Assembly (NCBI GenBank): GCA_001793235.1
Contig: MGHM01000002.1
Span: 1 to 40,916, forward strand
Length of the DNA stretch: 40,916 nucleotides
From: Candidatus Woesebacteria bacterium RIFCSPLOWO2_01_FULL_44_24b
Lineage (GTDB): Bacteria; Patescibacteriota; Microgenomatia; UBA8517
Direction of reading: 5' to 3'
Under the pieces are notes generated by a model. The model was not told the DNA's origin. It worked only from the letters and a program-made list of their open reading frames with translations, and made no database searches. Shown here one piece after another: positions 18,554-34,903 of this stretch (within the stretch, counting starts at the first letter, position 1; every line of letters starts with the position of its first letter). The translations under genes were made by a program, and so were the position numbers.

Positions 18554-19167
18554 TTTGTTTTCTTAAAATTGTCGGCGTCAAGAATTAACTTCCCACCAAA
18601 GTAAACAGTGTATGCATTAAGGTCGGAATATCTCTCCACGCGGAGTCGGTCAATATTTTTAAAATACTTATAAATCCCTTTGTTTTTCTCCGACAGAGCG
18701 AGCATTAGTTTCCCTTTTTCCAACTTCTCGCCTTTACAAATCGAATCAACTAAAAGCATAGCCTCTTTGGTTTTTGTGACTGCTGTCAGATCCTTTACCG
18801 CAACGATGGCCTTCTCTTTGGCTTTGAGGGCAAACGCGCTTGCGAGAGCCCTAATCTTCATTTTTTTGGGCAAACCAAGTACTCTTTTGACGCCCTTTGG
18901 CCCGTGAGCCACTCCGCCCCCGACGAATATCGGCGCACTTTGTGAGCCGTGCCTGGCACGCCCCGTCCCTTTTTGCTTGTACCATTTTGCAGTTGTCAGA
19001 TTGATTTCACCACGGGTTTTAACCTTGGAATTTCCGGCGTGGGTTCTGTCCCTGTAAATATGAATAGCTTGGGCCAAAAGTGCCTTGTTTACGTCTCCAC
19101 CGAACTCCTTCGGAAGAGCCAAGCTCTTAACCGTCTTTGATTTAGCTGAATATAGATTAACTTTCAT
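18550..19167 (-). CDS. rplD: 50S ribosomal protein L4
   Basis: KTRGE, KQKGTGRARHGS..APIFVGGGVAHGPK. Confidence 0.98.
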   Translation of the reverse strand: MKVNLYSAKSKTVKSLALPKEFGGDVNKALLAQAIHIYRDRTHAGNSKVKTRGEINLTTAKWYKQKGTGRARHGSQSAPIFVGGGVAHGPKGVKRVLGLPKKMKIRALASAFALKAKEKAIVAVKDLTAVTKTKEAMLLVDSICKGEKLEKGKLMLALSEKNKGIYKYFKNIDRLRVERYSDLNAYTVYFGGKLILDADNFKKTK

Positions 19168-19816
19168 TTGGTCTTCCTATTCTTTTAATAATCAACAAGC
19201 TTTCCGGAGTTCCCGGAACCGGCCCAGAAAGATGAAGTTCATTCTTTTCTGCGTCTACCGCGACCACTTTGATGTTTTTGATGCTCACGGTATCCCCTCC
19301 CATTCGCCCTGCCATTTTCTTGCCTTTCCAGACTCTCCCCGGATCCGTTCCCTGGCCAATAGAGCCCGGAGCACGCAGGCGATCAGACTGCCCGTGGGTC
19401 TTAGGTCCCCCGGCAAAATGCCAGCGCTTAACTCCGCCCGCAAAACCTTTACCCTTGGAAACGCCGGTAACTCGTACGACGTCCCCGGCCGAAAAAATGT
19501 CGGAGACTTTTATGGTGTCGCCGACTTTTTCTTCAGGTTCAGAAGTAAGCCTAATTTCTCTCAAAAAACGAGCCCCCCTTCGCTCCGCTTCGGAGGGGGA
19601 ACCCGCCTTTTTCAAGTGTCCTAGGACTGACTTGGTCATATTCTTGGTCTTTTTGGCGCCTGTCCCGAGTTGCACTCCCCAATAGCCATTTTTGCTCTCA
19701 GACAAAACTTGAGTGACAATATTTGGTTCCACGGAAATGACAGTTACAGGCACTCTTGTGTTTTCCACAAATGCCTGTGACATTTTTTGCTTTGTTCCTA
19801 AAATAGTATCAATCAT
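19157..19816 (-). CDS. rplC: 50S ribosomal protein L3
   Basis: VPVTV, SKGKGFAGGVKR, GRVWKGKKMAGRMG. Confidence 0.98.
   Translation of the reverse strand: MIDTILGTKQKMSQAFVENTRVPVTVISVEPNIVTQVLSESKNGYWGVQLGTGAKKTKNMTKSVLGHLKKAGSPSEAERRGARFLREIRLTSEPEEKVGDTIKVSDIFSAGDVVRVTGVSKGKGFAGGVKRWHFAGGPKTHGQSDRLRAPGSIGQGTDPGRVWKGKKMAGRMGGDTVSIKNIKVVAVDAEKNELHLSGPVPGTPESLLIIKRIGRPNES
19573..19599. repeat. Palindromic element in frame within rplC (encodes PSEAERRG)
   Basis: CCCCCTTCG-CTCCGCTT-CGGAGGGGG stem-loop in a variable loop of uL3. Confidence 0.65.
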
Positions 19817-19833
19817 GGTTAGAGACTTATTCC

Positions 19834-19856
19834 AAAAAAAGAGCGCCCGAAGGCGC
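19834..19856 (-). terminator. Attenuator-like terminator in the rplC leader
   Basis: GCGCC-TTCG-GGCGC followed by TCTTTTTTT, between the promoter and the rplC ATG. Confidence 0.75.
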
Positions 19857-19915
19857 GACTAGCTTCCTTCAAACTTACTCTCGAGGTTAAGGGCTAAACC
19901 ACCTCATGTGCATGG

Positions 19916-19944
19916 ATTATATCAAATGAGCGTGAGGGAAGCAA
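19916..19944 (-). promoter_or_regulatory. sigma70 promoter of the rplC-rpsI superoperon
   Basis: TTGCTT, 17-nt spacer, TATAAT, with TG extension. Confidence 0.8.
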
Positions 19945-19987
19945 GGAAATTTGCAGACAAATCGTGTTAAACCAAGTTTGAACCAAC

Positions 19988-20752
19988 TCAACCTTGAGTT
20001 GGTTCAGTGAATTGTGTAGACGATGCTAGTTCACCCATAACAGTAGAGCCAGCAAAGAGTCCTTTAGCAAGCAGCTCTTCTGCCTGCATCCTACCAACAC
20101 CCATACCGACATAATAGTCGTAAGCCTGTTTTATTGCTTCTCCATAAGTAGCCTCTCCGAAATCATAATTCTTTTTTCTTATAAAGTCCGTGTGTGCCAA
20201 ATGATCAAGCATAATAGTAGCCCTTCCGAGAGTATCTACCCCACCTTCACCCACCTTTTTGTAAAATCGCTCAATAAGCGAATTCAGGCTGTCTGGTGTA
20301 ATTGGTTTTTTGACTAAATTCCGATCCGGAACTTCTTCGATGATAATTTGTTCGGAAGTACCTTCATTCAGGGGTACAAGTACCTTACCAGCTGCATCAT
20401 AAAGTTTAGTTTCTGAATCAACTTTGTACTCTGCTAATGTGGGTAACCCAGCCGTCCCATCCCTAACTTTACCTTCATATTCTGAGTCTATAGCCATTTT
20501 TACTAAAAACCTCATTGCGACAACTTTTTTTGCATAGTTCTCATTCGGTGTTGACCATATAAACATATTTGCCAGGCCCTCATCATGCGGGTTTTTTCCA
20601 CTTTCAAAGGTTTTTTGGAGTATTTCTTTGTTCGAGCGTGTTGGAACAGCTTCATCCCGTTCGTTTGAGATATATCCTCTATAGAGAGTCTTTGGGCGAG
20701 GTTCGAGTTCTTGTTCTGAACTACTTATCCCCGTTGCTTCTTCAGGATACAC
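19988..20752 (-). CDS. Hypothetical protein, possible ADP-ribosyltransferase fold
   Basis: 254-aa ORF with GTG start; LYRG...IWSTP...A...SEQII motif order; TGgTAAATT 6 nt upstream. Confidence 0.6.
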   Translation of the reverse strand: MYPEEATGISSSEQELEPRPKTLYRGYISNERDEAVPTRSNKEILQKTFESGKNPHDEGLANMFIWSTPNENYAKKVVAMRFLVKMAIDSEYEGKVRDGTAGLPTLAEYKVDSETKLYDAAGKVLVPLNEGTSEQIIIEEVPDRNLVKKPITPDSLNSLIERFYKKVGEGGVDTLGRATIMLDHLAHTDFIRKKNYDFGEATYGEAIKQAYDYYVGMGVGRMQAEELLAKGLFAGSTVMGELASSTQFTEPTQG

Positions 20753-20819
20753 ATTAATAATTTACCATATTTCATTACACTCCAAAACCCTGTCGTGTTT
20801 AATTTTTTAATCGGTGGGC

Positions 20820-20849
20820 AAACTATCAAATGAGGTCGGGAGAAGCAAG
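20820..20849 (-). repeat. Second, degenerate copy of the rplC promoter
   Basis: TTGCTT-ctcccgacctcatttga-TAGTTT versus TTGCTT-ccctcacgctcatttga-TATAAT. Confidence 0.75.
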
Positions 20850-20912
20850 AAAGGATAGCAAGCGAGTTGTAATGTTGTAAAGAAAAATTTAATATGATAT
20901 AAAGTACCCTCT

Positions 20913-21101
20913 ATGACAATAGATCTAGAAAAGACCATCAAAAAATATGGAGGCAAGTGGGTATTGATTGACGACGAGGGAAGAAAGATCGTTACAAGCT
21001 CACGAAGTGCTAAAAGTGTGTATGTGAGTGCTAAAAAGCGAGGATATAAAACTCCCCACCTGTTCAAGGTCCCTACCAAATTAATCCCCTATATTGGTTA
21101 A
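20913..21101 (+). CDS. DUF5678-like small protein
   Basis: KYGGKWVLID...IVTSS......AKKRG...P pattern; directly upstream of an aspartyl protease. Confidence 0.75.
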   Translation: MTIDLEKTIKKYGGKWVLIDDEGRKIVTSSRSAKSVYVSAKKRGYKTPHLFKVPTKLIPYIG

Positions 21102-21104
21102 ATT

Positions 21105-21533
21105 ATGACGTTTAAATTCAATTTTACCAAGGGTGGTCCTTACAAATTCCCACTGATAGATATCTTGATCAACAATATTAATGATGGCGGCAATGGGCCG
21201 TTGAAATATACAGCATTGGTTGACTCAGGTGCAGTATTTTGTGTTTTTCACGCCGAGATAGCAGACCTTTTGGGTATAGATTTAAAAAGTATTAAAGACC
21301 AGATTGCGTTTAAGGGAGTGGGTAATGAAAAGCAAGAATTTACAGGTAAAGTTGTAATAATTAATATTATGTTATCGCAAAAAGGACAATCGCATCAATT
21401 CGATGCTCCCGTGGTTTTCTCTGACGAGATAAATAAAGATGGGCATCCACTTTTGGGTATTCGAGGATTTTTTGATAAGTTTAAAGACATTACCTTCAGC
21501 GAAGTGCGGGATAAAATAATCCTTGCCGCTTAA
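21105..21533 (+). CDS. Retropepsin-like single-domain aspartyl protease
   Basis: ALVDSGA catalytic motif, flap FKGVG, C-terminal LLGIRGFF. Confidence 0.85.
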   Translation: MTFKFNFTKGGPYKFPLIDILINNINDGGNGPLKYTALVDSGAVFCVFHAEIADLLGIDLKSIKDQIAFKGVGNEKQEFTGKVVIINIMLSQKGQSHQFDAPVVFSDEINKDGHPLLGIRGFFDKFKDITFSEVRDKIILAA

Positions 21534-21542
21534 CAATAAGGC

Positions 21543-21584
21543 TTACGTCTTAATCTTAACAGAAACTCCTGCTGGGAGCCCTAA
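21543..21584 (-). pseudogene. Diverged duplicate of the last 14 codons (including stop) of rpsJ
   Basis: 32/42 nt identical to 22004-22045; translates LGLPAGVSVKIKT* versus LELPAGVSIEVKM*. Confidence 0.85.
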
Positions 21585-21600
21585 GGTCGGGAGAAGCAAG
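21584..21600 (-). repeat. Third, truncated (-35 half) copy of the rplC-type promoter
   Basis: AGGTCGGGAGAAGCAAG is identical to 20833-20849. Confidence 0.8.
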
Positions 21601-21608
21601 GAAGAGGA

Positions 21609-22001
21609 TCACCTTTTACCAATCTCTGTGAGTGCTTCTTTAACAAAACCAAACGTGGCTGGGCCAAACCCGTAATGTTTGCCAATGACAAAGTCTAAGC
21701 TTCCTAAATCTAAAACTCTCTTCCTAAAGTCTTCCACAGTCTCAGACTCTAAAATAAGGCTCGCACCAGAAGATTTAACCACCCAACCATTCTTTCCTTT
21801 TTCAACATAGGATTTTGGGGCATTATATTGGAGAAAACGCCTGAAAGAATTAGCTGCTTTAGCGGCTTGTATATCAACCTCCCTTGTCTCCAAACCGTTT
21901 GAATTTAGGAGAAGAAACTTAATATGTTTTGATATATCATCAACTCTAGTGTCAATAATTTCAAAAGTTTCAGGACTATTGGCAGTACGCTCAGTAGGCA
22001 T
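21609..22001 (-). CDS. Hypothetical protein
   Basis: 130-aa ORF starting 2 nt after the rpsJ stop; no motif recognised. Confidence 0.6.
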   Translation of the reverse strand: MPTERTANSPETFEIIDTRVDDISKHIKFLLLNSNGLETREVDIQAAKAANSFRRFLQYNAPKSYVEKGKNGWVVKSSGASLILESETVEDFRKRVLDLGSLDFVIGKHYGFGPATFGFVKEALTEIGKR

Positions 22002-22003
22002 AT

Positions 22004-22312
22004 TTACATCTTAACTTCAATAGAAACTCCCGCCGGGAGTTCCAAATTGGAAAGCATGTCGATTGTTCGCTCACTGGGGTCCAGAATATCTATCAGGCGC
22101 TTGTGGACCAGCATCTCAAAATGCTCCTGTGCATCTTTGTGTTTAAAGGGGGACTCCAAAACGGGGATTATGGTTCTTTTTGTGGGGAGGGGAATGGGGC
22201 CGACTATTTTTGCACCAGAGGCCATAGCGCTGTCGAGAATTTTCGCAGCCGCTTCGTCAATAACTCTATGGTCGTAGCTTTTAAGCTTTACTCTGAGTCT
22301 TCCTGATGGCAT
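22004..22312 (-). CDS. rpsJ: 30S ribosomal protein S10
   Basis: LKSYDH, GPIPLPT, HKRLIDI, LPAGV. Confidence 0.98.
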   Translation of the reverse strand: MPSGRLRVKLKSYDHRVIDEAAAKILDSAMASGAKIVGPIPLPTKRTIIPVLESPFKHKDAQEHFEMLVHKRLIDILDPSERTIDMLSNLELPAGVSIEVKM

Positions 22313-22332
22313 TTTGGCCCTTTAAAGTGCGA

Positions 22333-22355
22333 CCCCGCAAAGCTTTGCCGCGGGG
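22333..22355. repeat. GC-rich hairpin in the tuf-rpsJ spacer
   Basis: CCCCGCAAAGCTTTGCCGCGGGG contains the perfect palindrome GCAAAGCTTTGC; no U-tract on the minus strand. Confidence 0.55.
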
Positions 22356-22361
22356 CACGGT

Positions 22362-23558
22362 TTATTTAGTAATCTTGGTGATTGCACCGGCGCCAACCGT
22401 GTGCCCACCTTCGCGAATAGCAAATCTTATTCCTTCTTCCATAGCAACCGGCACTATAAGCTTTACATTCATCTTGGCGGAATCTCCCGGCATTACCATT
22501 TCAATTCCCGAGGGCAAAGTCACTTCACCTGTGATATCGGCGGTTTTAATGAAAAATTGCGGTTTATAACCTGTAAAGAACGGTGTGTGGCGGCCACCCT
22601 CGTCTTTGCTTAGAATGTAAACCTCTGCTTCAAATTCGGTGTGAGGAGTAATTGAGCCTGGCTTGACCAAAAGTTGACCGCGCTCAACATCGTCCTTTTC
22701 TTTTCCCCGGAGGAGTACACCAACGTTGTCTCCTGCCTGAGTTTCATCAAGGGTCTTCCTAAACATCTCAAGACCGGTTACCACGGTTTTACTTGAAGGC
22801 TTGAGTCCAACTATTTCAATTTCATCATTTACCTTAAGTTTCCCGCGCTCTACCCGGCCGGTGACTACTGTTCCTCGACCTTTGATAGAAAAGACGTCTT
22901 CAACCGGCATCAAGAAGGGCTTATCAATGTCCCGAACCGGATCGGGAATATACTCATCAACTTTCTTCATAAGCTCCAAGATTTGCTTCTCGGCTTCCGC
23001 GTCGCCTTCAAGGGCTTTTAAGGCCGAACCTCGAATAACTGGAATTTCGTCCCCGGGGAACTGATATTTTTTAAGAAGCTCGCGTACATCCTCTTCAACC
23101 AGATCAATAATTTCCGGGTCGTCAACCGTGTCCACTTTATTAAGGAAAACGACCAGTGCAGGAACATTTACCTGGCGAGCCAAAATAACGTGCTCACGAG
23201 TTTGCGGCATCGGGCCGTCTGCGGCGGAGATAACTAAAATTGCGCCGTCCATTTGAGCTGCACCGGTAATCATGTTTTTGATGTAATCTGCATGGCCCGG
23301 AGCATCAATGTGAGCATAGTGCCTTTTCTCGGTCTCGTATTCAATGTGAGTAATGTTAATCGTAACTCCACGTTCTTTTTCCTCCGGAGCATTATCAATC
23401 TCGTCGAACTTATAAGCTTTATTTCCGGGAAAGTGCTTTGCCAAAACTGTGGAGATAGCGGCAGTCAATGTAGTCTTGCCATGGTCAACATGGCCAATAG
23501 TGCCGATATTGACATGCGGCTTGGTTCTTTCAAATTTCTGTTTAGTGTCAGCTGCCAT
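22362..23558 (-). CDS. tuf: Elongation factor Tu
   Basis: [31 protein letters not shown]. Confidence 0.99.
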
Positions 23559-23621
23559 GAGTTATATTATAAATGTTTTTAGGGCAAAATCAAATCCCGA
23601 TTAGAAATCAGGATAGTTGCA

Positions 23622-23650
23622 AGTATATTGAGGTCATTTGTGCTTGTCAA
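23622..23650 (-). promoter_or_regulatory. sigma70 promoter for tuf-rpsJ
   Basis: TTGACA, 17-nt spacer, TATACT; leader hairpin ATCCTGATT-TCT-AATCGGGAT (23614-23594). Confidence 0.85.
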
Positions 23651-23678
23651 GTATTAGTTTTGGAGTTAAAGGAAAATT

Positions 23679-23912
23679 TTATTTAACCCTTAATCTGTTG
23701 TCTGAATACTCAATTACTCCCTCAGAAAAAAGAAATCTTACAGTCTCGATCACCCGCTGTTGGACTTCCAGTCCGTCATAGTCGTAGACCACCGTCCGCA
23801 GGTCTATTGCTTTTTCTTCATCTGCAGTACTAATTCTTTTGACAATACCGGGGATTAGTGAGTTGCTGTTAAGTTCCTTGTCCGGAGGTAAATATCCGCT
23901 ACGTTCAAGCAT
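23679..23912 (-). CDS. Small hypothetical protein, winged-helix-like C-terminus
   Basis: 77-aa ORF filling the fusA-tuf gap; ends ETVRFLFSEGVIEYSDNRLRVK. Confidence 0.5.
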   Translation of the reverse strand: MLERSGYLPPDKELNSNSLIPGIVKRISTADEEKAIDLRTVVYDYDGLEVQQRVIETVRFLFSEGVIEYSDNRLRVK

Positions 23913-23946
23913 GCGCCAATATATAGTTTTGTTAATAAGAAGTCAA

Positions 23947-26109: not shown

Positions 26110-26111
26110 AT

Positions 26112-26144
26112 TTAGTTATGAGTAATTAGTTCTTAGTTAGTTAG
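26112..26144. repeat. Degenerate heptamer tandem array upstream of fusA
   Basis: TTAGTTA-TGAGTAA-TTAGTTC-TTAGTTA. Confidence 0.6.
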
Positions 26145-26184
26145 ACCAAGAGGCAAAATAAAATCACGCCTCGCGTGATTCACA

Positions 26185-26213
26185 ATTGTACCAAGCAACC
26201 GTGCTAAAATCAA
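26185..26213 (-). promoter_or_regulatory. sigma70 promoter for fusA, followed by a leader hairpin
   Basis: TTGATT, 17-nt spacer, TACAAT with TG extension; hairpin AATCACGC-GAG-GCGTGATT at 26180-26162. Confidence 0.75.
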
Positions 26214-26217
26214 TAAG

Positions 26218-26499
26218 TTGAAAATTATTTACAGGCCTCATTTAAAGCGAAGGTTAAAAGAAAGAAAGTTTCCTGACGATTATCCTCACAAGATATACAA
26301 AGAGGCAAAATTCAGGTTTTTTGATACTCAAACCAAACACCATATTGCTATTGCTAAAATGGAATATGCAGATAAGTTGAGAAACTTGTCGATCAGCTAT
26401 GATAAAATAGGTAACAAAATAGAAATCATTACAATTCATCCAATTTCGGATGAAGATATAAAAAGTAGAATAAAATCAAAAAGATGGCAGAAAAAATAA
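26218..26499 (+). CDS. DUF4258/RelE-like putative toxin
   Basis: IIYRPHLKRRLKERK N-terminus and IEIITIHP..RW C-terminus; paired with a DUF2283-like gene. Confidence 0.7.
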   Translation: MKIIYRPHLKRRLKERKFPDDYPHKIYKEAKFRFFDTQTKHHIAIAKMEYADKLRNLSISYDKIGNKIEIITIHPISDEDIKSRIKSKRWQKK

Positions 26500-26714
26500 A
26501 AAGAGAAAAGGTATATTACGACAAAAAAAGCGATGCTTTATGGATGTTTGTCCAGAAAGGTATTGAATATGAATCCAAAGAAATTTCTCCCGGGGTAAAC
26601 GTGGAGCTGGGAGAAAATGGGGAGTTATTGGGAATAGAAATACTTAATGCCTCGAAAATTTTAGGGGGGAAGATTAGCAATAAAAAAGAGTCTTACTCTC
26701 CCGCTTCGATCTGA
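26484..26714 (+). CDS. DUF2283-family putative antitoxin
   Basis: YYDKKSDALW...G.LLGIEILNASK signature. Confidence 0.85.
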   Translation: MAEKIKREKVYYDKKSDALWMFVQKGIEYESKEISPGVNVELGENGELLGIEILNASKILGGKISNKKESYSPASI

Positions 26715-26735
26715 GCGTTGTGTTAAAATCAATAA

Positions 26736-26852
26736 ATGCTAACTTGGATGTTGTATGTTACGAACGATCCCTTTACAAATTTAGTTGCCTTTGCTGGGTT
26801 CATAATAATCATCTATTACTTAGTAAAGTTCTTTAGGAGAAACAAAAAGTAG
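26736..26852 (+). CDS. 38-aa single-TM small protein (not in the ORF track)
   Basis: MLTWMLYVTNDPFTNLVAFAGFIIIIYYLVKFFRRNKK*; TGtTAAAAT 6 nt upstream of the ATG. Confidence 0.55.
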   Translation: MLTWMLYVTNDPFTNLVAFAGFIIIIYYLVKFFRRNKK

Positions 26853-26874
26853 TGCCCGAGTTTGAGGATTTAGA

Positions 26875-27871: not shown

Positions 27872-30800
27872 TCAGGTATGCAGTCGTGCTCGCTCCTCAT
27901 CAACAGGAATGAGCCTGCCGATTATAACATTTTCTTTGAGTCCAAGTAGCTTATCCTTCTTGCCTATCAAGGCCGAGTTGGCCAAAATGTCCGTTGTTTG
28001 CTCGAAACTGGCCGCAGACAGCCATGAATTTGTATAAAGTGCACGTCTTGTGATTCCCAAAATTACTTGTCTTGCGCTCGCAGGCTCGCCGCCGGCGGCC
28101 AAAACCGCCTCATTTTCCTCTTCAAAGACTGCTTTTTCAACCAAGTCCCCGGGCAAAATCGAAGAGTCTCCGGCCGTGACCACTCGAACCTCGTCGCTAA
28201 TCTTTCGGACCATAACCTCAAAGTGTCTGTCGTCGATGGCAATACCCTGAGACTCATAAACCGCCTGAAGCTCCTGGACCAAATACTCCTGCGCAGCTTT
28301 CAAGCCCTTAATCTGCAGGATCTCTTTAATATCCAAAAATCCGCTGGCCAGTTGAGTCCCGGGGCCCACCAAGGACTTGTCCTCAACCAGGATTTTGCTG
28401 GTCTTTGGTATCACATATTCGCGCTCCTCGACCGGTTTCGTGTCCGAGGTAACTTTGACATTCCAGCCTTCCTCAAGTTCCTCGACCGTCACTTTTCCGG
28501 CAATATCAACAATCGGGGAAAGGGACTTCGGGACGCGTGCCTCAAAAAGCTCTTCAACTCGGGGCAGCCCTTGGGTCACGTCCACACCAACCACTCCCCC
28601 TGTGTGCTTAGTACGCATAGTAAGCTGAGTGCCCGGCTCGCCGATAGACTGGGCTGCAACCACCCCAACCGGCACGCCGATGTCAATAAGCTTTCTGGTC
28701 GACAAATCCCAGCCATAGCATTTCTTGCAAACTCCGTAGCGGGTCTTGCAAGTAAGAGGTGAGCGCACTTTCACTTCTTTTACATCCTCATTTTGAGTAA
28801 TCTCAAGAGCAATCAGATCACTCATCAACTCATTTTTCTTAACCAGAACTTTTTTCCCGGCTACCACGTCTTCCGCGGCAAAGCGGCCGTGAATTCGAGC
28901 AGGGAAGGCTTTGGTGCGCTCGTCCTTGGACATAACCAAGAACTCCTCAGTTCCACAGTCATCTTCCCGAACTAAGACATCATGGGCCACATCCACCAGT
29001 CTTCGAGTCAAATACCCAGCGTCAGCGGTTTTGAGAGCCGTATCGGTCAAGCCTTTCCTGGAACCGCGACCTGAGGCCACATATTCAAACACTGAAAGGC
29101 CTTCTCTAAAGTTACTCTTAACCGGCAACTCTACAACGTTACCCAAGGGGTCAATAACCAGTCCTCGCATACCGGCAAGCTGCTTAATCTGATCCCTCGA
29201 AGTGCGGCCCACCTTGGCATCTATGACAATTCTTACCGGACCATTGGGGTCGACCATTTCCCAGGTTCTGTCCGCAATAAGCTCGGTAGTTTCTATCCAA
29301 ATATCTTTGATGAGGCGTTTCTTTTCGTCGTTGGTTATAAGCCCCTGCGCAAAGTTTTGCTCAATCACGGCCGCGCGGGCATTGGCCGCCTCAATCATTT
29401 GCGGCTTCTCCGGGTGAACCTGAGCATCTGAAATCCCGAATGACAGACCCGACAGGGTGCCTCCCACAAAACCAATGTCTTTAATATCGTCTATCAGCTT
29501 AATCAGCTTCTCATGCTCCACTTCCATAAATGCCTTGTCTATGAGATCTTTAATTATTCCGGAGTGCACGTTTTCGTTGATAAAATTAAACTCCGGCGGT
29601 AAAATCTCATTAAAGAGAATGCGGCCAACTGTGGTGTCGACTATCTTTGAGCCAATGCGCACACTAATCTTTTGTCTTACCTTTATCTTGCCCTGTTGGT
29701 AAGCATGAATTGACTCCTGGGCACCTGCAAAAACCGTCTCGGATGCAGGAAGCGACTCATCGAGAGTGGTAAAGTAATAAACTCCCAAGGCAATTTCTTT
29801 AGATGCAGGAGCCGCCATTGGCGAGCCGTCGGCGGGCCTGAGCAAATTTTTGTCCGAAAGCATGAGCTCCCGTGCTTCCTGCTGAGCCATCTGGGAAAGC
29901 GGTAAATGAACCGCCATCTGGTCCCCGTCAAAGTCAGCGTTGAAACCTTTACACACTGCCGGATGAACACGAATGGCACTTCCTTCAATTAAAACAGGAT
30001 AGAAGGCCTGAATGCCAAGTTTGTGCAACGTCGGCGCACGGTTGAGAAGTATCGGATGATTCCTGGTAATTTCCTCCAAAATATCAAACACTTCCGGTGG
30101 TCGCCTCTCAAGCATGTTTTTGGCGGACTTCACGTTCGGGGCAATGCCGCGCTCAATCATTTCGCGAAGCACAAATGGCTTTGCCATTTCAAGCGCCATG
30201 TCTTTGGGCAAACCACACTGGGTGAGCTTAAGCTCGGGCCCGACAACTATTACAGAGCGCCCGGAATAGTCAACACGCTTACCCAAAAGGTTCTGGCGGA
30301 AGCGGCCCTGTTTGCCTTTAAGCATATCTGAGAGTGACCTCAAAGGCTGCCTGCCGCGGCCGCGCCTTGTAGCTTTTCTCTGCGAGGCGTCGATCAAGGA
30401 ATCGACCGACTCCTGGAGCATCCTCTTTTCGTTTCGTAGGATTATCTCCGGTGCTCCAAGCCCGATTAAGTGCTTCAAGCGGTTATTGCGGTTTATCACC
30501 CTCCTATATAAATCATTCAAATCACTTGTGGCAAAACGCCCGCCTGAAAGCTGAACCATTGGCCGCAAATCAGGAGGAAGCACGGGAAGCACTCTTAAGA
30601 CCATCCAAGAAGGAGAAGTTTTGGCGCCCCTCATTCCGTCAATAATCTTAAGCCTCTTGGTAAGCTTCAAATATCTTGCACCCTTGCCCTTAACTTCATC
30701 TATGTCTGTTCTGATTTCTTTTGCCGCCTTGTCCAAATCGAGCTTATCCAAGGCCTCGAGTAAGGCTTCCGCTCCCATCTTAACCTCAGCAAAGTCATTA

Positions 30801-33800
30801 ACGCCGTAGTTTGCAAGCTGGTCATACTCATCTTCAGTGAGAAAACCAAATTGCCGGACATCCTTAACTATAGAAACAAGTTTTCCAAAAAGCTCTTCGG
30901 TTCGCTCAACGGTTGTCCGCTCTTCCTCAGTTAAAGCGGTTATGTTTTTACGGGTTGTAAGCTCAACTTCCGAAAGGGCTAAGGCCAATTGATCCTTGTC
31001 TTTAATTCTTTTCTTAACTTTGGCCTCGCGTTCTTTTGAATCAGCCTCGGTAAGAACTCTTTTTTCTTTATAAATCTGTCTAGTCTCAGCAAGCTTCTCG
31101 CTACGAACCTGCTCCAGTGTCTTTATCGCCTGCGTTCTACCCTCTTTGTCCACTGACATAACCAGATATCTGGCAAAATAGATAACCTGCTCGACCGCTC
31201 TGGGAGGAAGATCAAGTAGCAAGGAAATCTTACTTGGAGCACCCTTGAAATACCAGACATGCGCGACTGCAGCGGCAAGGGCAATGTGACCCATGCGCTC
31301 GCGCCGGACGCGGGCTTCAGTTACCTCAACTCCACATTTATCGCAAATAACACCCTTATAGCGGATGCGCTTATACTTACCACAGTAGCATTCCCAGTCT
31401 TTGGTTGGACCGAATATCCGCTCGTCAAAAAGTCCGTCTTTCTCGGGTTTCAAGGTTCTGTAATTAATGGTTTCAGGCTTGGTAATCTCGCCCTGAGACC
31501 AGGCTCTTATGTCCTCGGGTGAGGCCAGGCGGATTTGAAGAGAAGTCACGTCCTCAAGATTTCTAAGCTGCATCAATGGGTCCGGGTGTTTCCTGCCTTC
31601 AGCCTCTTTAACTTCTTTAATCTCCTCCTGCGCCAGTTCTTCACTGGGCAACTCGGTTTCTTTGATTGCAACACCCTCCACATTTACTGCCAGTCCCAGA
31701 GAGTTAAGCTCGCGAATAAGCACTTTAAAGCTCTCGGGGACTTTTGCTTCAGGGATTGGCTCGCCTTTGACAATTGCGCCAAAGGCCTGAGCGCGGCCGA
31801 CAATATCGTCGGACTTAATGGTGAGCATTTCCTGAAGCGTATGGGATGCACGATGTGCCTCCAGTGCCCAAACTTCCATTTCGCCAAGTCTCTGGCCTCC
31901 CATTTGAGCTTTACCACCCAAAGGCTGTTGAGTAACAAGCGAGTACGGGCCAGTTGAGCGGGCATGAGTTTTATCCTCAATCATGTGCTTAAGCTTTAGA
32001 ATGTAACCAATACCCACAACCGTTTTCTCACTGAACGGCTCGCTTGTGCGGCCGTCATAAAGCTGAGCTTTACCGTCCCCGGGAAGCCCCACGCTCTCAA
32101 GTTCTTTTGAGATAACACCCTCTTCAACTTTGTCAAAGACGGGGAGGGCGCCTTTCTGGCCTTTTTTGGCAAGTGCCCAGCCAAGATGGGTTTCGAGTAG
32201 TTGCCCCAAGTTCATACGGGCAAGCACCGAAAGTGGCGAAATTATAAGGTCCACCGGAGTGCCATCCGCAAGGTACGGCATGTCTTCCACAGGCATTATC
32301 TTGGCGATAACTCCTTTGTTGCCGTGGCGCCCCGCAAGCTTGTCCCCGACACTTACTTTTCGAAGCTGCGCAACTTTAACTACCACGCTCATCATTACTC
32401 CCGGCCCAAGCTCGTCGCCTTTGTCTTTGTCGAGCACACTCACGTCCACCACTATGCCGCCTTCGCCGTGGGGAACCCGAAGCGAGGTGTCACGAACTTC
32501 ACGGGCTTTCTCGCCGAAAATGGCTCGAAGAAGGCGCTCCTCACTGTTAAGCTCGGTCTCGCCCTTCGGAGCAATTTTTCCAACCAGAATATCGTTCGGG
32601 CCAACTTCCGAGCCAACCACAACTATGCCGTCCTCGGCAAGATTTGCCAGCTCCATTTCGGCAACATTCGGAATGTCCCGGGTAAGCTCTTCCGGCCCAA
32701 GCTTGGTTTCCACCACATCTGCTTGGTATTCTTTTATATGCACAGAGGTCAAAAGATCGTCTTTTACGAGCCTATCGGAGACCAAAATCGCGTCCTCAAA
32801 ACCATAACCACCGTAATTCATATATGCCACCATCAAGTTTTGGCCCAACGCCAGTTCGCCACCCTCACTTGCGGGGCCGTCCGCCAGTAAATCTCCCTTT
32901 TTAATTTTCTGGCCTGTCACTACAGCGGTTTTTTGATTATATGAGGTGGACTGCGCAGTTCGCTTAAATTTATTCAGGTGATATGTAACCTTTTTGCCAC
33001 CGTTTTGTATTTCCATCTGGTCTGAACTAACCTTGTCGGTGAGCTTACTAAGAGTTAATTCAATTCTGTCCGCATCGGCATAGCTTATAACGCCTTCGAA
33101 ATCACTTTTAATAACACGGCCCATTGCACTCGCCACAACTTCCTCCATTCCGGTTCCCACAACCGGGGACTCGGGAGACACTAAAGGCACAGCCTGGCAT
33201 TGCATGTTGCTGCCCATAAGCGCGCGGTTTCCTTCATCGTGTGCAAGGAAAGGAATAAGCGCGGCGGAGGCCCCAAACACCTGCCTCGGAGTTACGTCAA
33301 CATAGTCAACTAGCTCTATTGGCCCTTCCAAAAACTCGCCCCTGAACCTGAAAGGTACGCGTTCAGCGGTGATTACCCCATTTTCATCCATGGGGATACT
33401 GCTATGGCTTATGTGGCACTCCTGATCATCGTCAGCAGTCATGTAAACTATCTCGCCAGTAAGCCTCACTTTAGTCTTCCCACGGGCTTCGGTCTTTTCC
33501 ACTTTTCTGTATGGCGTTTCAATGAATCCATACTCGTTAACCCGCGCATAAAGGGCCAAATAAGTAACAAGACCGATATTCGGTCCCTCGGGTGAGCGAA
33601 TAGGATCAATTCTTCCGTACTGCGAAGAATTAATATCTCGGATTGAAAAGCTCGCCCTCTCGCGATTTATGCCCCCCGGTCCAAGAACCGAGACCCTTCG
33701 CAAGTTATCAATCTCGCTTAAAGGATTTGTGTCATCCAAAATGGTTGACAACTGATTTGATCGGAAAAACTCGTTAATCGCCGCAACCAACGGGCGGGCA

Positions 33801-34903
33801 TTAATCAGGCTCTGCGGCATGGGTTTATCATCGGGCGAGATAAGGCTCATTTTTTCTTTAACTGAGCGCTCGAGGCGCAAGAGTCCCACTCGAAAAGCAT
33901 GAGTAGCCACAAGCTCACCTACACGCCTCAGCCTTCGGTTCGATAAGTGATCAATATCGTCCACATGCCCTTGGCCGTTCTGAAGGCCGATGAGGTATTG
34001 AAGAGTGGCAACCACGTCTTCTCTGGTCAAAATCCAGTTTTCCCGGGTGTTAGGGACATCAAGCTTAAGTCTTTTGTTAATCTTATAGCGGCCCACTCGG
34101 CCAAGGTCATACCGTCTGGGCTCAAAAAAGAGACTCACAAAAAGGCTCTCAGCGTTGTCAATCACTGCTGGCTCACCGGGTCTTAGCTTCCTGTAAATTT
34201 CAATCAAGGCCTCCTCGCGGGTCGCGGTAGTATCTTTCTCAAGCGTTCGCTCGATATAGTGATGGGTGCCGTCTGTGTCAACACCAACAAAAGCATCCTG
34301 TATTTGTTTGTCTGTGGCCACCCCCATCGCACGCAACAAAGTTACCGCGTTTACCTTTCTCCTTTTATCAATACGGGCTGAAATCACGTCGTTTCTGGCG
34401 ATTTCAAATTCAAGCCATGAGCCGTGAAGCGGGCGAACTTCAGCGCGGCCCAAAAGCCTTCCGGTCGTGCGGTCCCGCTCAGAAGAAAAATAAATTCCCG
34501 GAGAGCGAACTACTTGGTTGATAACCGCGCGTTCAATTCCGTTTATTACAAAAGTCCCGCTTGTCGTCATTTGCGGGATATTGCCAAAAAATACCTCCTG
34601 CTCAACGGCTTCGCCGGTGCGCTTGTTTATTAGTGTGGTGTTAATTTTAAATGGAGCTGAAAACGTCAGACCTTTTTCAAGGGCATATTTAGGAGTATTT
34701 TTGGGCTCTTCCAAGGTATGCTGTCCCAAAGTAAGTTGCCAGTTTTTGCCTGTAAAATCATCAATTGGAGTAATTTGCGAAATTTCCTGGGCTATTCCTT
34801 CAGTCAAAAACCACTCCCAGCTTTCTCTCTGAACAAGAGATAAGTCAAGCTTTGGCAGATCTTTCTCAATTTTTCCGAAATTTCGTCTTTTTGTTTGAGC
34901 CAT
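27872..34903 (-). CDS. rpoBC: Fused RNA polymerase beta-beta' subunit
   Basis: One 2343-aa ORF with beta motifs ([27 protein letters not shown]) followed by beta' motifs (Zn finger [22 protein letters not shown]). Confidence 0.97.

What the first reader, a model, noticed from the sequence alone, without database searches (positions are those of the whole stretch)
19916..22045. Integrase-free cassette stack between rpsJ and rplC, delimited by duplicated rpsJ ends and rplC promoters
Seen: rpsJ and rplC, normally adjacent, are about 2.2 kb apart. In transcription order (minus strand) the region reads: rpsJ; 130-aa ORF; the -35 half of a promoter (21600-21584), fused directly to a diverged copy of the rpsJ 3' end (21584-21543; 32/42 identical, all 10 differences are transitions, LPAGVS retained); the DUF5678/protease pair; a second promoter copy (20849-20820; 17 bp identical to the first); 254-aa ORF; the intact rplC promoter (19944-19916). 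Inference: repeated units of 'rpsJ tail - cargo - rplC promoter', possibly from related genomes, were stacked in tandem. The conserved ribosomal gene end would act as a landing pad, for example by homology-facilitated recombination of incoming DNA or a trans-acting recombinase. No integrase or attC site is visible, so this could be an undescribed gene-capture hotspot inside an essential operon.
Basis: partly seen in the sequence, partly recalled or inferred. Interest (0 to 1): 0.85.

Follow-up and report, generated by a model that had tools for sequence, protein, structure and literature searches.

The report
Variable gene slot between rpsJ and rplC
In this tiny groundwater bacterium and its relatives the gap between two neighbouring ribosomal protein genes is a slot where unrelated accessory genes come and go, and leftover copies of a gene end and of a promoter look like scars of sloppy recombination, not signs of a new gene-capture machine.

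Summary
rpsJ and rplC lie 2187 bp apart. The gap holds four accessory genes, a decayed 42-nt copy of the rpsJ 3' end and two extra copies of the rplC promoter. Contigs from four other samples bridge every junction.

The site is a hotspot. In 37 relatives the gap runs from 142 bp to 15.4 kb, with almost no shared cargo, while tuf|rpsJ and 14 other junctions of the cluster stay tight. It is not unique: rpsG|fusA and fusA|tuf also vary.

It is not inside an operon. rplC has its own conserved promoter and a terminator-bearing leader in 36 of 38 genomes.

rpsJ-end relics recur in 8 of 99 intervals. All have the same orientation and all end at the stop codon. rpsG-end relics also occur. Promoter duplicates occur only in this genome. 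No tyrosine recombinase lies in any of the 38 intervals.

Best reading (about 0.55): an integrase-free hotspot at an operon boundary. Genes are added by recombination with one homologous end in a conserved flank and one illegitimate end, which leaves short flank copies as scars. An integron-like or trans-recombinase system is not excluded (about 0.15). This is a new member of a known kind.

The parts
22004..22312 (-). rpsJ (ribosomal protein S10), last gene of the rpsL-rpsG-fusA-tuf-rpsJ run. Its last 42 nt (22004-22045) are the source of the relic.
   Evidence: Pfam Ribosomal_S10 4.6e-32. tuf|rpsJ gap is 49 nt here, median 40 in 35 relatives.
21609..22001 (-). ORF130, an orphan ORF that starts 2 nt after the rpsJ stop codon.
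   Evidence: No Pfam, NCBIfam or PADLOC hit. Only itself among 5.8e9 protein clusters. A short motif is shared with ORF254 (E 4e-4).
21584..21604 (-). Truncated copy of the rplC promoter (the -35 half), abutting the rpsJ-end relic.
   Evidence: 95% identical to 20833-20853, with a 17-nt exact core.
21543..21584 (-). Decayed copy of the last 42 nt of rpsJ, including the stop codon.
   Evidence: 32/42 identical, 10/10 differences are transitions. nhmmer E 7.3e-6. It carries G, K and T at three positions that are D/E (N in one genome), E and M/I in 38 genomes.
21105..21533 (+). Retropepsin-like aspartic protease gene, second gene of a two-gene module.
   Evidence: Pfam gag-asp_proteas 5e-4 and Asp_protease_2 8e-4, both below cut-off. 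DSGA motif. Three paralogous pairs lie elsewhere in the genome.
20913..21101 (+). DUF5678 gene, first gene of the two-gene module, preceded by a promoter-like site at 20875-20903(+).
   Evidence: PF18929 3.8e-8. Four DUF5678 genes in the genome, each next to a protease paralogue. Promoter-like site read by eye.
20820..20852 (-). Second, full-length copy of the rplC promoter with a degenerate -10 box, upstream of ORF254.
   Evidence: 79% identical to 19920-19948. 24/34 against a shuffle maximum of 21. Closer to the genome's own promoter (22/30) than to any relative's (20/30 or less).
19988..20752 (-). ORF254, an accessory gene of unknown function.
   Evidence: One 36%-identical homologue in 5.8e9 clusters. 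Homologues in 3 of 138 other genomes of the order (one of them marginal, E 9.5e-4), none beside rpsJ or rplC. AlphaFold model pLDDT 48.
19979..20006 (-). Terminator-like hairpin (12-13 bp stem) overlapping the ORF254 stop codon.
   Evidence: (I7).
19916..19944 (-). The working rplC promoter (TTGC, 17 nt, TTTGATATAAT type).
   Evidence: Found 87-200 nt upstream of rplC in 36 of 38 genomes.
19817..19915 (-). rplC leader with a 5' hairpin and a G+C-rich terminator hairpin (19843-19856) followed by a T run.
   Evidence: The terminator stem is conserved in 35 aligned leaders, and 6 of 7 pairs show compensatory changes. No Rfam family matches.
19157..19816 (-). rplC (ribosomal protein L3), first gene of the downstream operon.
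   Evidence: Pfam Ribosomal_L3 6.3e-18. Junctions from rplC|rplD onward are tight.

Best explanation
In this CPR order, rpsJ ends the rpsL-rpsG-fusA-tuf-rpsJ transcription unit. rplC starts the next unit with its own strong promoter and an attenuator-type leader. The spacer between them tolerates inserted genes and has become a hypervariable, integrase-free accessory-gene slot.

In this genome the slot holds an orphan ORF coupled to rpsJ, a DUF5678 plus retropepsin-like two-gene module on the other strand, and a second near-orphan ORF.

The extra rpsJ end and the two extra promoter copies are scars, not functional delimiters. I infer that incoming DNA from related cells, which carried other cargo at the same locus, recombined with one homologous crossover in a conserved flank (rpsJ on one side, the rplC promoter and leader on the other) and one illegitimate joint. 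Such an event adds genes instead of replacing them, and it leaves a short truncated copy of the flank at the illegitimate joint.

Only short flank copies (about 25-45 nt) survive, because longer direct repeats would delete the insert again by homologous recombination.

Shown: the anatomy, the variability, the recurrence and polarity of the relics, the absence of recombinase genes in the slot, and the operon boundary. Inferred: the recombination route, the order of events, and the survivorship argument.
For: Variability:
- In 37 relatives the rpsJ-rplC gap is 142 to 15,377 nt. 33 of 37 exceed 300 nt and 19 of 37 exceed 1 kb.
- Cargo is almost never shared. It spans 62 Pfam families in 84 ORFs.

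Control junctions:
- Of 18 junctions in 36 relatives, rpsJ|rplC is the most variable (median 1035 nt).
- rpsG|fusA (19/28 over 300 nt) and fusA|tuf (9/35) also vary. The other 15 have 0-1 gaps over 300 nt.
- In metagenome loci with S10 identity of 65% or more, the gap is 148-1874 nt (n=12) while tuf|rpsJ is 73 nt or less.

Operon boundary:
- The promoter is conserved in 36/38 genomes.
- A terminator hairpin with covariation is present in 35 leaders.

Relics:
- rpsJ ends recur in 4/38 genomes (G000, G004, G017, G023) and 4/61 metagenome gaps.
- All have rpsJ orientation. Homology always ends at the stop codon and starts 25-42 nt upstream.
- rpsG-end relics occur in 2/28 gaps.
- Cargo shared with relatives lies on the rplC side of the relic: FtsJ in G017 and G023, GT87 in G004 and G009.

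Recombinases and uptake genes:
- 0 of 38 intervals hold a PF00589 match. Most of the 41 genomes have two to three matches (range 1-4), and none lies in the interval.
- ComEC, two DprA and RecA are encoded.

Assembly: confirmed in four other samples.
Against: - No donor or intermediate arrangement was found. The same-genus genome G001 has a different single ORF and the nearest metagenome relative (L076) has none.
- The relic and the promoter copies are not closer to any sampled foreign lineage than to this genome's own sequences.
- The relic differs from the true end only by transitions (10/10, against 31/62 between G000 and G001 rpsJ). That fits decay of a local duplicate as well as an import.
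- The two promoter pieces are 20/21 identical while tail and relic are 32/42. One simple event does not predict this.
- The left boundaries of 4 of 7 independent relics fall at -38 to -42. This hints at a preferred site.
- ORF254 homologues in other genomes sit at non-allelic sites, so its donor need not have carried it at the same locus.
- No relic of the rplC 5' end or leader was found.
- Promoter duplication occurs in 1 of 33 genomes only.
- Recombination in the flanking genes was not tested.
- IS200-type transposase (2) and reverse transcriptase (2) domains do occur among the 84 cargo ORFs of relatives.
Confidence: 0.55

Rival explanations
1. Site-specific insertion. The last 25-45 nt of rpsJ (and of rpsG) act as an attachment site. 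Small integrase-less elements that carry a copy of that end are inserted by a recombinase acting in trans and pile up in tandem. This would resemble cis-mobilizable elements accreting at the 3' ends of ribosomal protein genes in streptococci.
For: - Direct repeats containing the gene's 3' end flank the inserted DNA in all 8 cases. They have one orientation and always end at the stop codon.
- In L088 the relic is followed directly by the original promoter -10 box and leader, as an attR would be.
- 4 of 7 independent relics start at -38 to -42.
- TA-like pairs are frequent cargo: a PIN plus MazE-like pair in L093 and the DUF5678/protease pair here.
- The genome has Xer-like recombinases and one serine recombinase elsewhere.
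- This architecture is described for IMEs and CIMEs (PMC5704250, passages read).
Against: - 0 of 38 intervals contain a tyrosine recombinase.
- The only serine recombinase of G000 is on another contig.
- Relic lengths differ (25, 30, 38, 39, 42, 42 nt).
- A second specificity would be needed for rpsG.
- The promoter-copy junctions in this genome are not at the rpsJ site.
- No excision joint was seen, though contigs cannot show rare forms.
Confidence: 0.15
2. Purely internal rearrangement. A tandem duplication from the rpsJ end to mid-promoter, together with a promoter duplication, arose within this lineage. The copies then decayed. The cargo genes arrived independently or arose de novo.
For: - A tandem duplication of the segment from 'rpsJ -42' to 'promoter spacer' predicts exactly the observed joint of a -35 half fused to an rpsJ end (sequence).
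- All 10 tail differences are transitions.
- The relic and the promoter copies are most like this genome's own sequences.
- G004 and G017 relics match their own rpsJ ends exactly over 17 and 16 nt.
- ORF130 and ORF254 are orphans that share a short motif.
Against: - The cargo on the two sides of each relic is unrelated, so duplication alone does not bring the genes.
- The DUF5678/protease family also sits after rpsJ in G036 and G027.
- Cargo turnover among relatives is far too high for internal events alone.
Confidence: 0.15
3. The copies are kept because they work. The rpsJ end doubles as the upstream part of the rplC promoter or as a terminator, so any viable insertion must duplicate it. The second promoter copy drives ORF254.
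For: - In L088 the -35 box of the rplC promoter lies inside the rpsJ coding end and the -10 box follows the stop codon. An insertion there must duplicate the end to keep both genes working (read by eye).
- In 'empty' sites the promoter starts 4-25 nt after the stop.
- The second promoter copy sits 67 nt upstream of ORF254.
Against: - In G000, G004 and G017 the relic is not next to the rplC promoter.
- The G000 relic has decayed at invariant codons and the -10 box of the second promoter copy is degenerate.
- No expression data exist: 0 RNA runs among the 14 listed.
Confidence: 0.08

Closest known systems
Integrase-free horizontal-transfer hotspots flanked by core genes (Oliveira et al. 2017, PMC5635113; abstract and passages read)
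   Same: - The same two core genes flank very different accessory content in relatives.
- No integrase or recognisable mobile element lies in the interval.
[quoted passage not shown]
   Different: - Here the flanks are two ribosomal protein genes that are adjacent in most bacteria.
- The organisms are small-genome CPR bacteria.
- Short truncated copies of the flanks are left inside the slot.
- Recombination in the flanks was not measured here.
- The paper's supplementary hotspot lists could not be consulted.
Homology-facilitated illegitimate recombination in natural transformation (de Vries & Wackernagel 2002; Prudhomme et al. 2002; seen only as entries in the reference list of PMC2884548, content recalled)
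   Same: One homologous anchor plus one illegitimate joint adds foreign DNA next to a conserved gene. The competence genes ComEC and DprA, and RecA, are present.
   Different: No donor, no experiment and no microhomology of note at the one joint I could read (1-2 nt, by eye). The mechanism is inferred from scars only.
IME/CIME tandem accretion at the 3' end of ribosomal protein genes (rplL, rpmE, rpmG, rpsI) in streptococci (Guedon et al. 2017, PMC5704250; passages and table rows read)
   Same: - Inserted DNA lies behind an intact ribosomal protein gene.
- A direct repeat containing the gene's 3' end sits at the far side.
- Elements without their own integrase can stack.
- TA modules are common cargo.
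   Different: - No integrase was found in any interval or in tandem.
- The inserts are tiny, 0.1-3.5 kb.
- Repeat lengths vary.
- No conjugation or mobilisation genes were seen.
Integrons
   Same: Several unrelated small gene modules lie in a row at one chromosomal site downstream of a strong transcription unit.
   Different: No IntI and no attC sites. Orientations are mixed and the modules have their own promoters. The delimiters are copies of the flanks, not recombination sites.

Membership tests
Integron | IntI-type tyrosine recombinase gene next to the array | tested here: not met
   PF00589 matches in 41 genomes never fall in the rpsJ-rplC interval (0 of 38 intervals). In G000 they lie on contigs C20 and C16.
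Integron | attC imperfect palindromes bounding each cassette | tested here: not met
   The inverted-repeat scan of 19700-22400 finds only a terminator-like 13-nt palindrome at the end of ORF254. Module borders are copies of the rpsJ end or of the promoter.
Integron | Promoterless cassettes in one orientation fed by one promoter | tested here: not met
   The DUF5678/protease pair is on the opposite strand with its own promoter-like site. ORF254 has a promoter copy upstream.
IME/CIME accretion at a gene 3' end | Direct repeats that include the 3' end of the target gene flank the inserted DNA, and the gene stays intact | tested here: met
   Eight intervals carry a same-orientation copy of the rpsJ end downstream of an intact rpsJ.
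IME/CIME accretion at a gene 3' end | A site-specific recombinase of matching specificity in the element or in a tandem partner | tested here: not met
   0 of 38 intervals hold one. The lone serine recombinase of G000 is on C7. Serine recombinases were not searched in the relatives.
IME/CIME accretion at a gene 3' end | A fixed identity segment (the same crossover region in independent insertions) | tested here: inconclusive
   Left boundaries fall at about -42, -42, -39, -38, -30, -25 and -24 (perhaps -42). The right boundary is always the stop codon.
IME/CIME accretion at a gene 3' end | Excised circular form or empty site in the population | not testable with these tools
   Only assembled contigs of older runs were available. 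They show no joint in the interval but cannot show rare forms.
Integrase-free HGT hotspot flanked by core genes | The same flanking core genes with different accessory genes among relatives | tested here: met
   37 relatives have gaps of 142-15,377 nt, few shared ORFs, and 62 Pfam families in 84 ORFs.
Integrase-free HGT hotspot flanked by core genes | Gene gain concentrated at this interval compared with other intervals | tested here: met
   It is the most variable of the 18 junctions in the cluster. 15 junctions have 0-1 gaps over 300 nt. Only this gene cluster was compared, not the whole genome.
Integrase-free HGT hotspot flanked by core genes | More homologous recombination in the flanking core genes | not tested
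   This needs population alignments of rpsJ and rplC, which were not done.
Homology-facilitated illegitimate recombination | One homologous crossover and one illegitimate joint traceable to a donor | tested here: inconclusive
   The scars fit, but no donor was found among 37 genomes and 79 metagenome loci.
Toxin-antitoxin-like two-gene module (DUF5678 + retropepsin-like protease) | A small tightly linked gene pair, multi-copy and scattered among housekeeping genes, with a toxic and a neutralising partner | tested here: inconclusive
   There are four pairs in G000, with 1-4 nt between the genes in two of them and an overlap in a third, and D[ST]GA is kept in all four. No PADLOC or NCBIfam hit. 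Activity is untested. One paper in the library contains 'DUF5678', and it is unrelated.

The most novel reading that the evidence does not exclude
The last 25-45 nt of highly expressed translation genes (rpsJ, rpsG) serve in these CPR bacteria as landing pads for an integrase-less cassette traffic. Small modules that carry a copy of the gene end would circularise by recombination between the two copies. They would move between cells by DNA uptake and re-insert by a single short-homology crossover, or through the resident Xer or serine recombinase. The result would be an integron-like array fed by ribosomal-operon transcription. The clustering of relic starts near -40 and the stop-codon end of every relic would then be the signature of the site.
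Probability: 0.12. Interest if true: 0.8.

Novelty: new member of a known kind. Interest (0 to 1): 0.4.

Why it matters
The str-S10-spc ribosomal gene block is the most conserved gene arrangement in bacteria and is the backbone of the marker sets used to place uncultured lineages. In one CPR order it contains three soft junctions where orphan genes, TA-like pairs, glycosyltransferases and other accessory genes turn over.

This gives a convenient, alignable window on how very small genomes gain genes without obvious mobile-element machinery. The short copies of gene ends are datable scars of single insertion events.

It also warns that large gaps or contig breaks between rpsJ and rplC in such bins are real biology and not misassembly.

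Tried and rejected
Chimeric assembly: rejected. Contigs of X4, X5, X7 and X10 bridge all junctions. No excision or deletion joint was seen inside the interval, but assembled contigs cannot show rare variants.

Foreign origin of the relic: not supported. The best identity is 33/42 among 37 genomes and 32/42 among 79 metagenome loci, against 32/42 to the genome's own end.

Generic-promoter explanation for the promoter copies: a promoter profile finds the true rplC promoters but scores the second copy only at E 9.2. The self-comparison test was used instead.

Relics of the rplC 5' end or leader: none. Relics of the fusA end: none in 31 gaps. The tuf|rpsJ block was spoiled by a file-name error and is not used.

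One rpsJ-end-like hit lies outside the interval (G013, about 10 kb downstream, E 0.016). It was left as probable chance.

Function of the cargo:
- Pfam, NCBIfam and PADLOC are empty for ORF130 and ORF254.
- Atlas neighbours all fall below the tool's bar. Some structural rows for ORF254 are ADP-ribosyltransferase-like families, which is a lead only.
- The AlphaFold model of ORF254 has pLDDT 48, so no fold search was run.
- ORF130 versus the G017 ORF at the same place: no similarity.
- ORF254 relatives in genome contigs: none found.

Leader structure: on the MAFFT alignment only the terminator stem came out. The single-sequence fold is not better than shuffles (z -0.62). The 5' hairpin is seen by eye only. 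Rfam: no family in the window.

Literature:
- 'DUF5678': 1 unrelated paper.
- rpsJ + rplC + Candidate Phyla Radiation: 1 unrelated paper.
- Patescibacteria + 'S10 operon': 0 papers.
On these three searches I found no description of this slot. That is not proof that none exists.

Supplementary files were never requested.


Full report
**What is there.** On the minus strand the window reads as follows.
- tuf (22362-23558).
- rpsJ (22004-22312).
- ORF130 (21609-22001).
- A -35 half of a promoter (21584-21604).
- A 42-nt copy of the rpsJ 3' end with its stop codon (21543-21584).
- A DUF5678 gene and a retropepsin-like protease gene on the plus strand (20913-21101, 21105-21533).
- A second, full promoter copy (20820-20852).
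- ORF254 (19988-20752).
- A terminator-like hairpin (19979-20006).
- The rplC promoter (19916-19944) and a 99-nt leader with a G+C-rich terminator hairpin.
- rplC (19157-19816).

The rpsJ-rplC distance is 2187 nt.

**The repeats.**
- The relic is 32/42 identical to the true end, and all 10 differences are transitions.
- The two upstream promoter pieces share a 17-nt exact core that occurs nowhere else in the 898-kb genome.
- The full second copy matches the working promoter at 24 of 34 positions, against a maximum of 21 in 30 shuffles.

**The assembly is sound.** Fourteen public runs hold the stretch. I laid four that are not flagged as possible sources. Their independently assembled contigs bridge every junction with no differences. 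Examples are X4 records 10, 12 and 13, X5 record 22, X7 records 27 and 29, and X10 record 4. No joint falls inside the interval. Assembled contigs cannot reveal rare excision products.

**The interval is a hotspot.** I located rpsJ and rplC in 40 relatives. In 37 of them both genes lie on one contig.
- The gap ranges from 142 nt (G022) to 15,377 nt (G040). 33 of 37 exceed 300 nt and 19 of 37 exceed 1 kb.
- In the other three relatives the genes lie on different contigs (G007, G025) or rpsJ was not found (G038).
- The same-genus genome G001 has one unrelated 160-aa ORF in 676 nt. The nearest metagenome relative (L076, S10 89% identical) has 191 nt and no cargo.
- An all-against-all comparison of 92 interval ORFs shows few shared families. 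These are an FtsJ methyltransferase in five genomes, a GT87 glycosyltransferase in two, and a few others.
- Pfam finds 62 families in 84 ORFs. Only the top 25 are listed by the tool. Three giant ORFs of G040 were left out.
- The DUF5678/protease family also sits directly after rpsJ in G036, and DUF5678 does so in G027.

**Is this junction special?** I fetched 10-20 kb around the locus in 36 relatives and measured 18 consecutive junctions from rpoBC to rplE.
- rpsJ|rplC has a median gap of 1035 nt. 32/36 gaps exceed 300 nt and 18/36 exceed 1 kb.
- rpsG|fusA is second, with median 543, 19/28 over 300 and 8/28 over 1 kb.
- fusA|tuf is third, with 9/35 over 300. Five values of -2100 are artefacts of loci that do not reach fusA.
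- The other 15 junctions have 0-1 gaps over 300 nt. tuf|rpsJ has a median of 40 and a maximum of 235.
- So the slot is real but is one of three soft junctions.
- Metagenome loci agree. With S10 identity of 65% or more, the gap is 148-1874 nt (n=12, plus 2 loci with no rplC within more than 1 kb) while tuf|rpsJ is 73 nt or less. Below 60% identity, 13 of 31 have the classical gap of 30 nt or less.

**It is an operon boundary.** In 36 of 38 genomes a promoter of the form TTGC, 17 nt, TTTGATATAAT/ACT lies 87-200 nt upstream of rplC. It is followed by a leader that ends in a GGCGCC-loop-GGCGCC hairpin and a T run.
- In an alignment of 35 leaders the 7-bp stem is kept, with compensatory changes in 6 pairs.
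- A 5' hairpin (GGAGGTGGTT...AACCAC, with covarying variants) is visible by eye, but the automatic alignment did not recover it.
- No Rfam family matches.
- In 'empty' sites the promoter begins 4-25 nt after the rpsJ stop.

The claim that cargo sits 'inside an essential operon' therefore does not hold.

**Relics elsewhere.** A profile of the last 90 nt of rpsJ was searched over the 38 intervals (75.4 kb).
- It finds G000 (E 7.3e-6), G023 (6.9e-4) and G004 (7.3e-3).
- Exact-repeat scanning adds G017, where 16 nt of its own rpsJ end recur 446 nt downstream. It confirms G004, where 17 nt recur 3.5 kb downstream.
- In 61 metagenome gaps (49.8 kb) four more appear: L088, L093, L100 and L086, with E from 3e-7 to 2.7e-4. 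L086 looks orthologous to G023. That gives about seven independent events in 99 intervals.
- In a 588-kb control (36 loci plus the window) the profile hits the 37 true ends, the two strongest relics and one weak hit outside an interval.
- All eight relics have the orientation of rpsJ. Homology to the true end always stops at the stop codon, or 4 nt beyond it in L088. It starts 24-42 nt upstream.
- The same kind of relic exists for rpsG in 2 of 28 rpsG|fusA gaps. G023 scores E 4.4e-6 with coding capacity preserved, and G037 scores 3.4e-3.
- No relic of the fusA end, the rplC 5' end or the leader was found.
- Duplication of a genome's own rplC promoter was detected only in G000, out of 33 genomes tested.

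**Where the relic sits.**
- In G017 the order is rpsJ, a unique ORF, the relic, then ORF107 and the FtsJ gene shared by five genomes.
- In G004 the order is rpsJ, three unique ORFs (PMT/TPR, unknown, PKD), the relic, then the GT87 gene shared with G009.
- In L088 the order is rpsJ, a 291-aa ORF, the relic, then directly the -10 box, leader and rplC.
- In L093 the order is rpsJ, a PIN plus MazE-like pair, the relic.

This fits insertion of new DNA, together with a new rpsJ end, upstream of the old end. The mirror reading also fits: the relic could mark the start of imported DNA.

**No recombinase.** PF00589 finds one to four tyrosine recombinases in each of the 41 genomes, two or three in most, and none lies in an interval. 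G000 has one serine recombinase on another contig. IS200-type transposase and reverse transcriptase domains occur twice each among the relatives' cargo. G000 encodes ComEC, two DprA and RecA.

**Origin of the copies in G000.**
- The relic translates to LGLPAGVSVKIKT*. All 38 true ends read L/I/M-[DE, N in one]-L-P/A-A-G-V-[SD]-[IV]-E-[IV]-K-[MI]*. At least three changes are therefore decay.
- The relic is not closer to any of 116 other rpsJ ends than to its own.
- The second promoter copy is closest to the genome's own promoter (22/30, against 20/30 or less).
- Between the G000 and G001 rpsJ genes only 31 of 62 differences are transitions. Ten of ten transitions in the relic (0.5^10, about 0.001 by my arithmetic) points to fairly recent mutational decay, not to an old foreign allele.
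- The two upstream promoter pieces are 20/21 identical while tail and relic are 32/42. I cannot fully reconcile these figures with a single event.

**Cargo.**
- ORF130 has no relative in 5.8e9 clusters.
- ORF254 has one there (36%). In the order it has homologues in 3 of 138 other genomes: G128 twice, G137, and a marginal hit in G046. None is beside rpsJ or rplC.
- In G137 the homologue lies between genes that look like yidD and yidC. I recognised these by recalled motifs and did not test them.
- The DUF5678/protease pair is one of four such pairs in G000. All four keep D[ST]GA.
- Function prediction failed.

**Mechanism.** The most economical account is an integrase-free hotspot at an operon boundary. 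Genes are added by recombination with related DNA, anchored in a conserved flank on one side and joined illegitimately on the other.

This explains five things:
- the polarity of the relics;
- their end at the stop codon, because donor and recipient differ from there on;
- their variable start;
- their position between newer and older cargo;
- the promoter copies in G000, which are mirror-image events anchored on the rplC side.

Relics longer than about 45 nt may be missing because long direct repeats delete the insert again. That is my inference.

The clustering of four relic starts at -38 to -42, and the att-like look of L088, keep a site-specific or short-homology cassette mechanism alive. 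Streptococcal IMEs and CIMEs at ribosomal protein gene ends are the closest described parallel (PMC5704250, passages read). Integrase-free hotspots with recombining flanks are described in PMC5635113 (abstract and passages read). The papers on homology-facilitated illegitimate recombination I saw only as references in PMC2884548.

**Verdict.** It is an interesting, well-marked example of a known kind of locus in an unusual place, not a new class of system on present evidence.

Noticed in passing
window 19817-19915 (-), and the same place in 35 relatives (loci L036-L070): A conserved rplC leader: a 5' hairpin (GGAGGTGGTT...AACCAC type, with covarying variants seen by eye), then a GGCGCC hairpin with a T run just before rplC-rplD. 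It looks like a transcription attenuator, possibly an L4- or L3-responsive ribosomal leader. No Rfam family matches.
   Followed up: partly
window 27872-34903 (-): rpoB and rpoC are fused in one 2343-aa open frame. Rpb2 domains cover residues 66-1075 and Rpb1 domains cover 1117-2249.
   Followed up: partly
window 26110-26874 and 23559-23946: The two other soft junctions are also filled here. rpsG|fusA has 765 nt with no convincing ORF. fusA|tuf has 388 nt holding a 77-aa ORF (23679-23912) with no family hit.
   Followed up: partly
G000 contigs C4:99853-100492, C10:7599-8249, C15:48665-49286, and window 20913-21533: Four DUF5678 + retropepsin-like (D[ST]GA) gene pairs are scattered among housekeeping genes. 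This looks like an undescribed toxin-antitoxin-like module family.
   Followed up: partly
G000:C16:49561-51345: A tyrosine recombinase (Xer-like) match is split by about 1.25 kb within one 726-aa open frame. This may be an intein or another in-frame insert.
   Followed up: no
L175 (G023), rpsG|fusA gap positions 95-146; L173 (G037), gap positions 1082-1110: Copies of the rpsG 3' end lie downstream of intact rpsG. The G023 copy still encodes the conserved C-terminus with synonymous differences.
   Followed up: partly
L088, about 1 kb after rpsJ: Here the -35 box of the rplC promoter lies within the rpsJ coding end and the -10 box directly follows the stop codon. The duplicated rpsJ end is therefore part of the working promoter (by eye).
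   Followed up: no
L071 (G040), 15.4-kb rpsJ-rplC interval: Three giant paralogous ORFs (1726, 1266 and 1327 aa; 35-42% identical, with long exact repeats) fill the slot on the opposite strand.
   Followed up: no
L052 (G013) interval; L093 after the relic: G013 has three copies of a 34-nt terminator-like repeat within its interval. L093 has a four-fold tandem 10-mer right after its relic.
   Followed up: no
L203 (G137:C39:11618-12319): An ORF254 homologue sits on the opposite strand between genes that look like yidD and yidC of the rnpA-yidD-yidC cluster (names from recalled motifs). This is another accessory gene lodged in a conserved housekeeping cluster.
   Followed up: no
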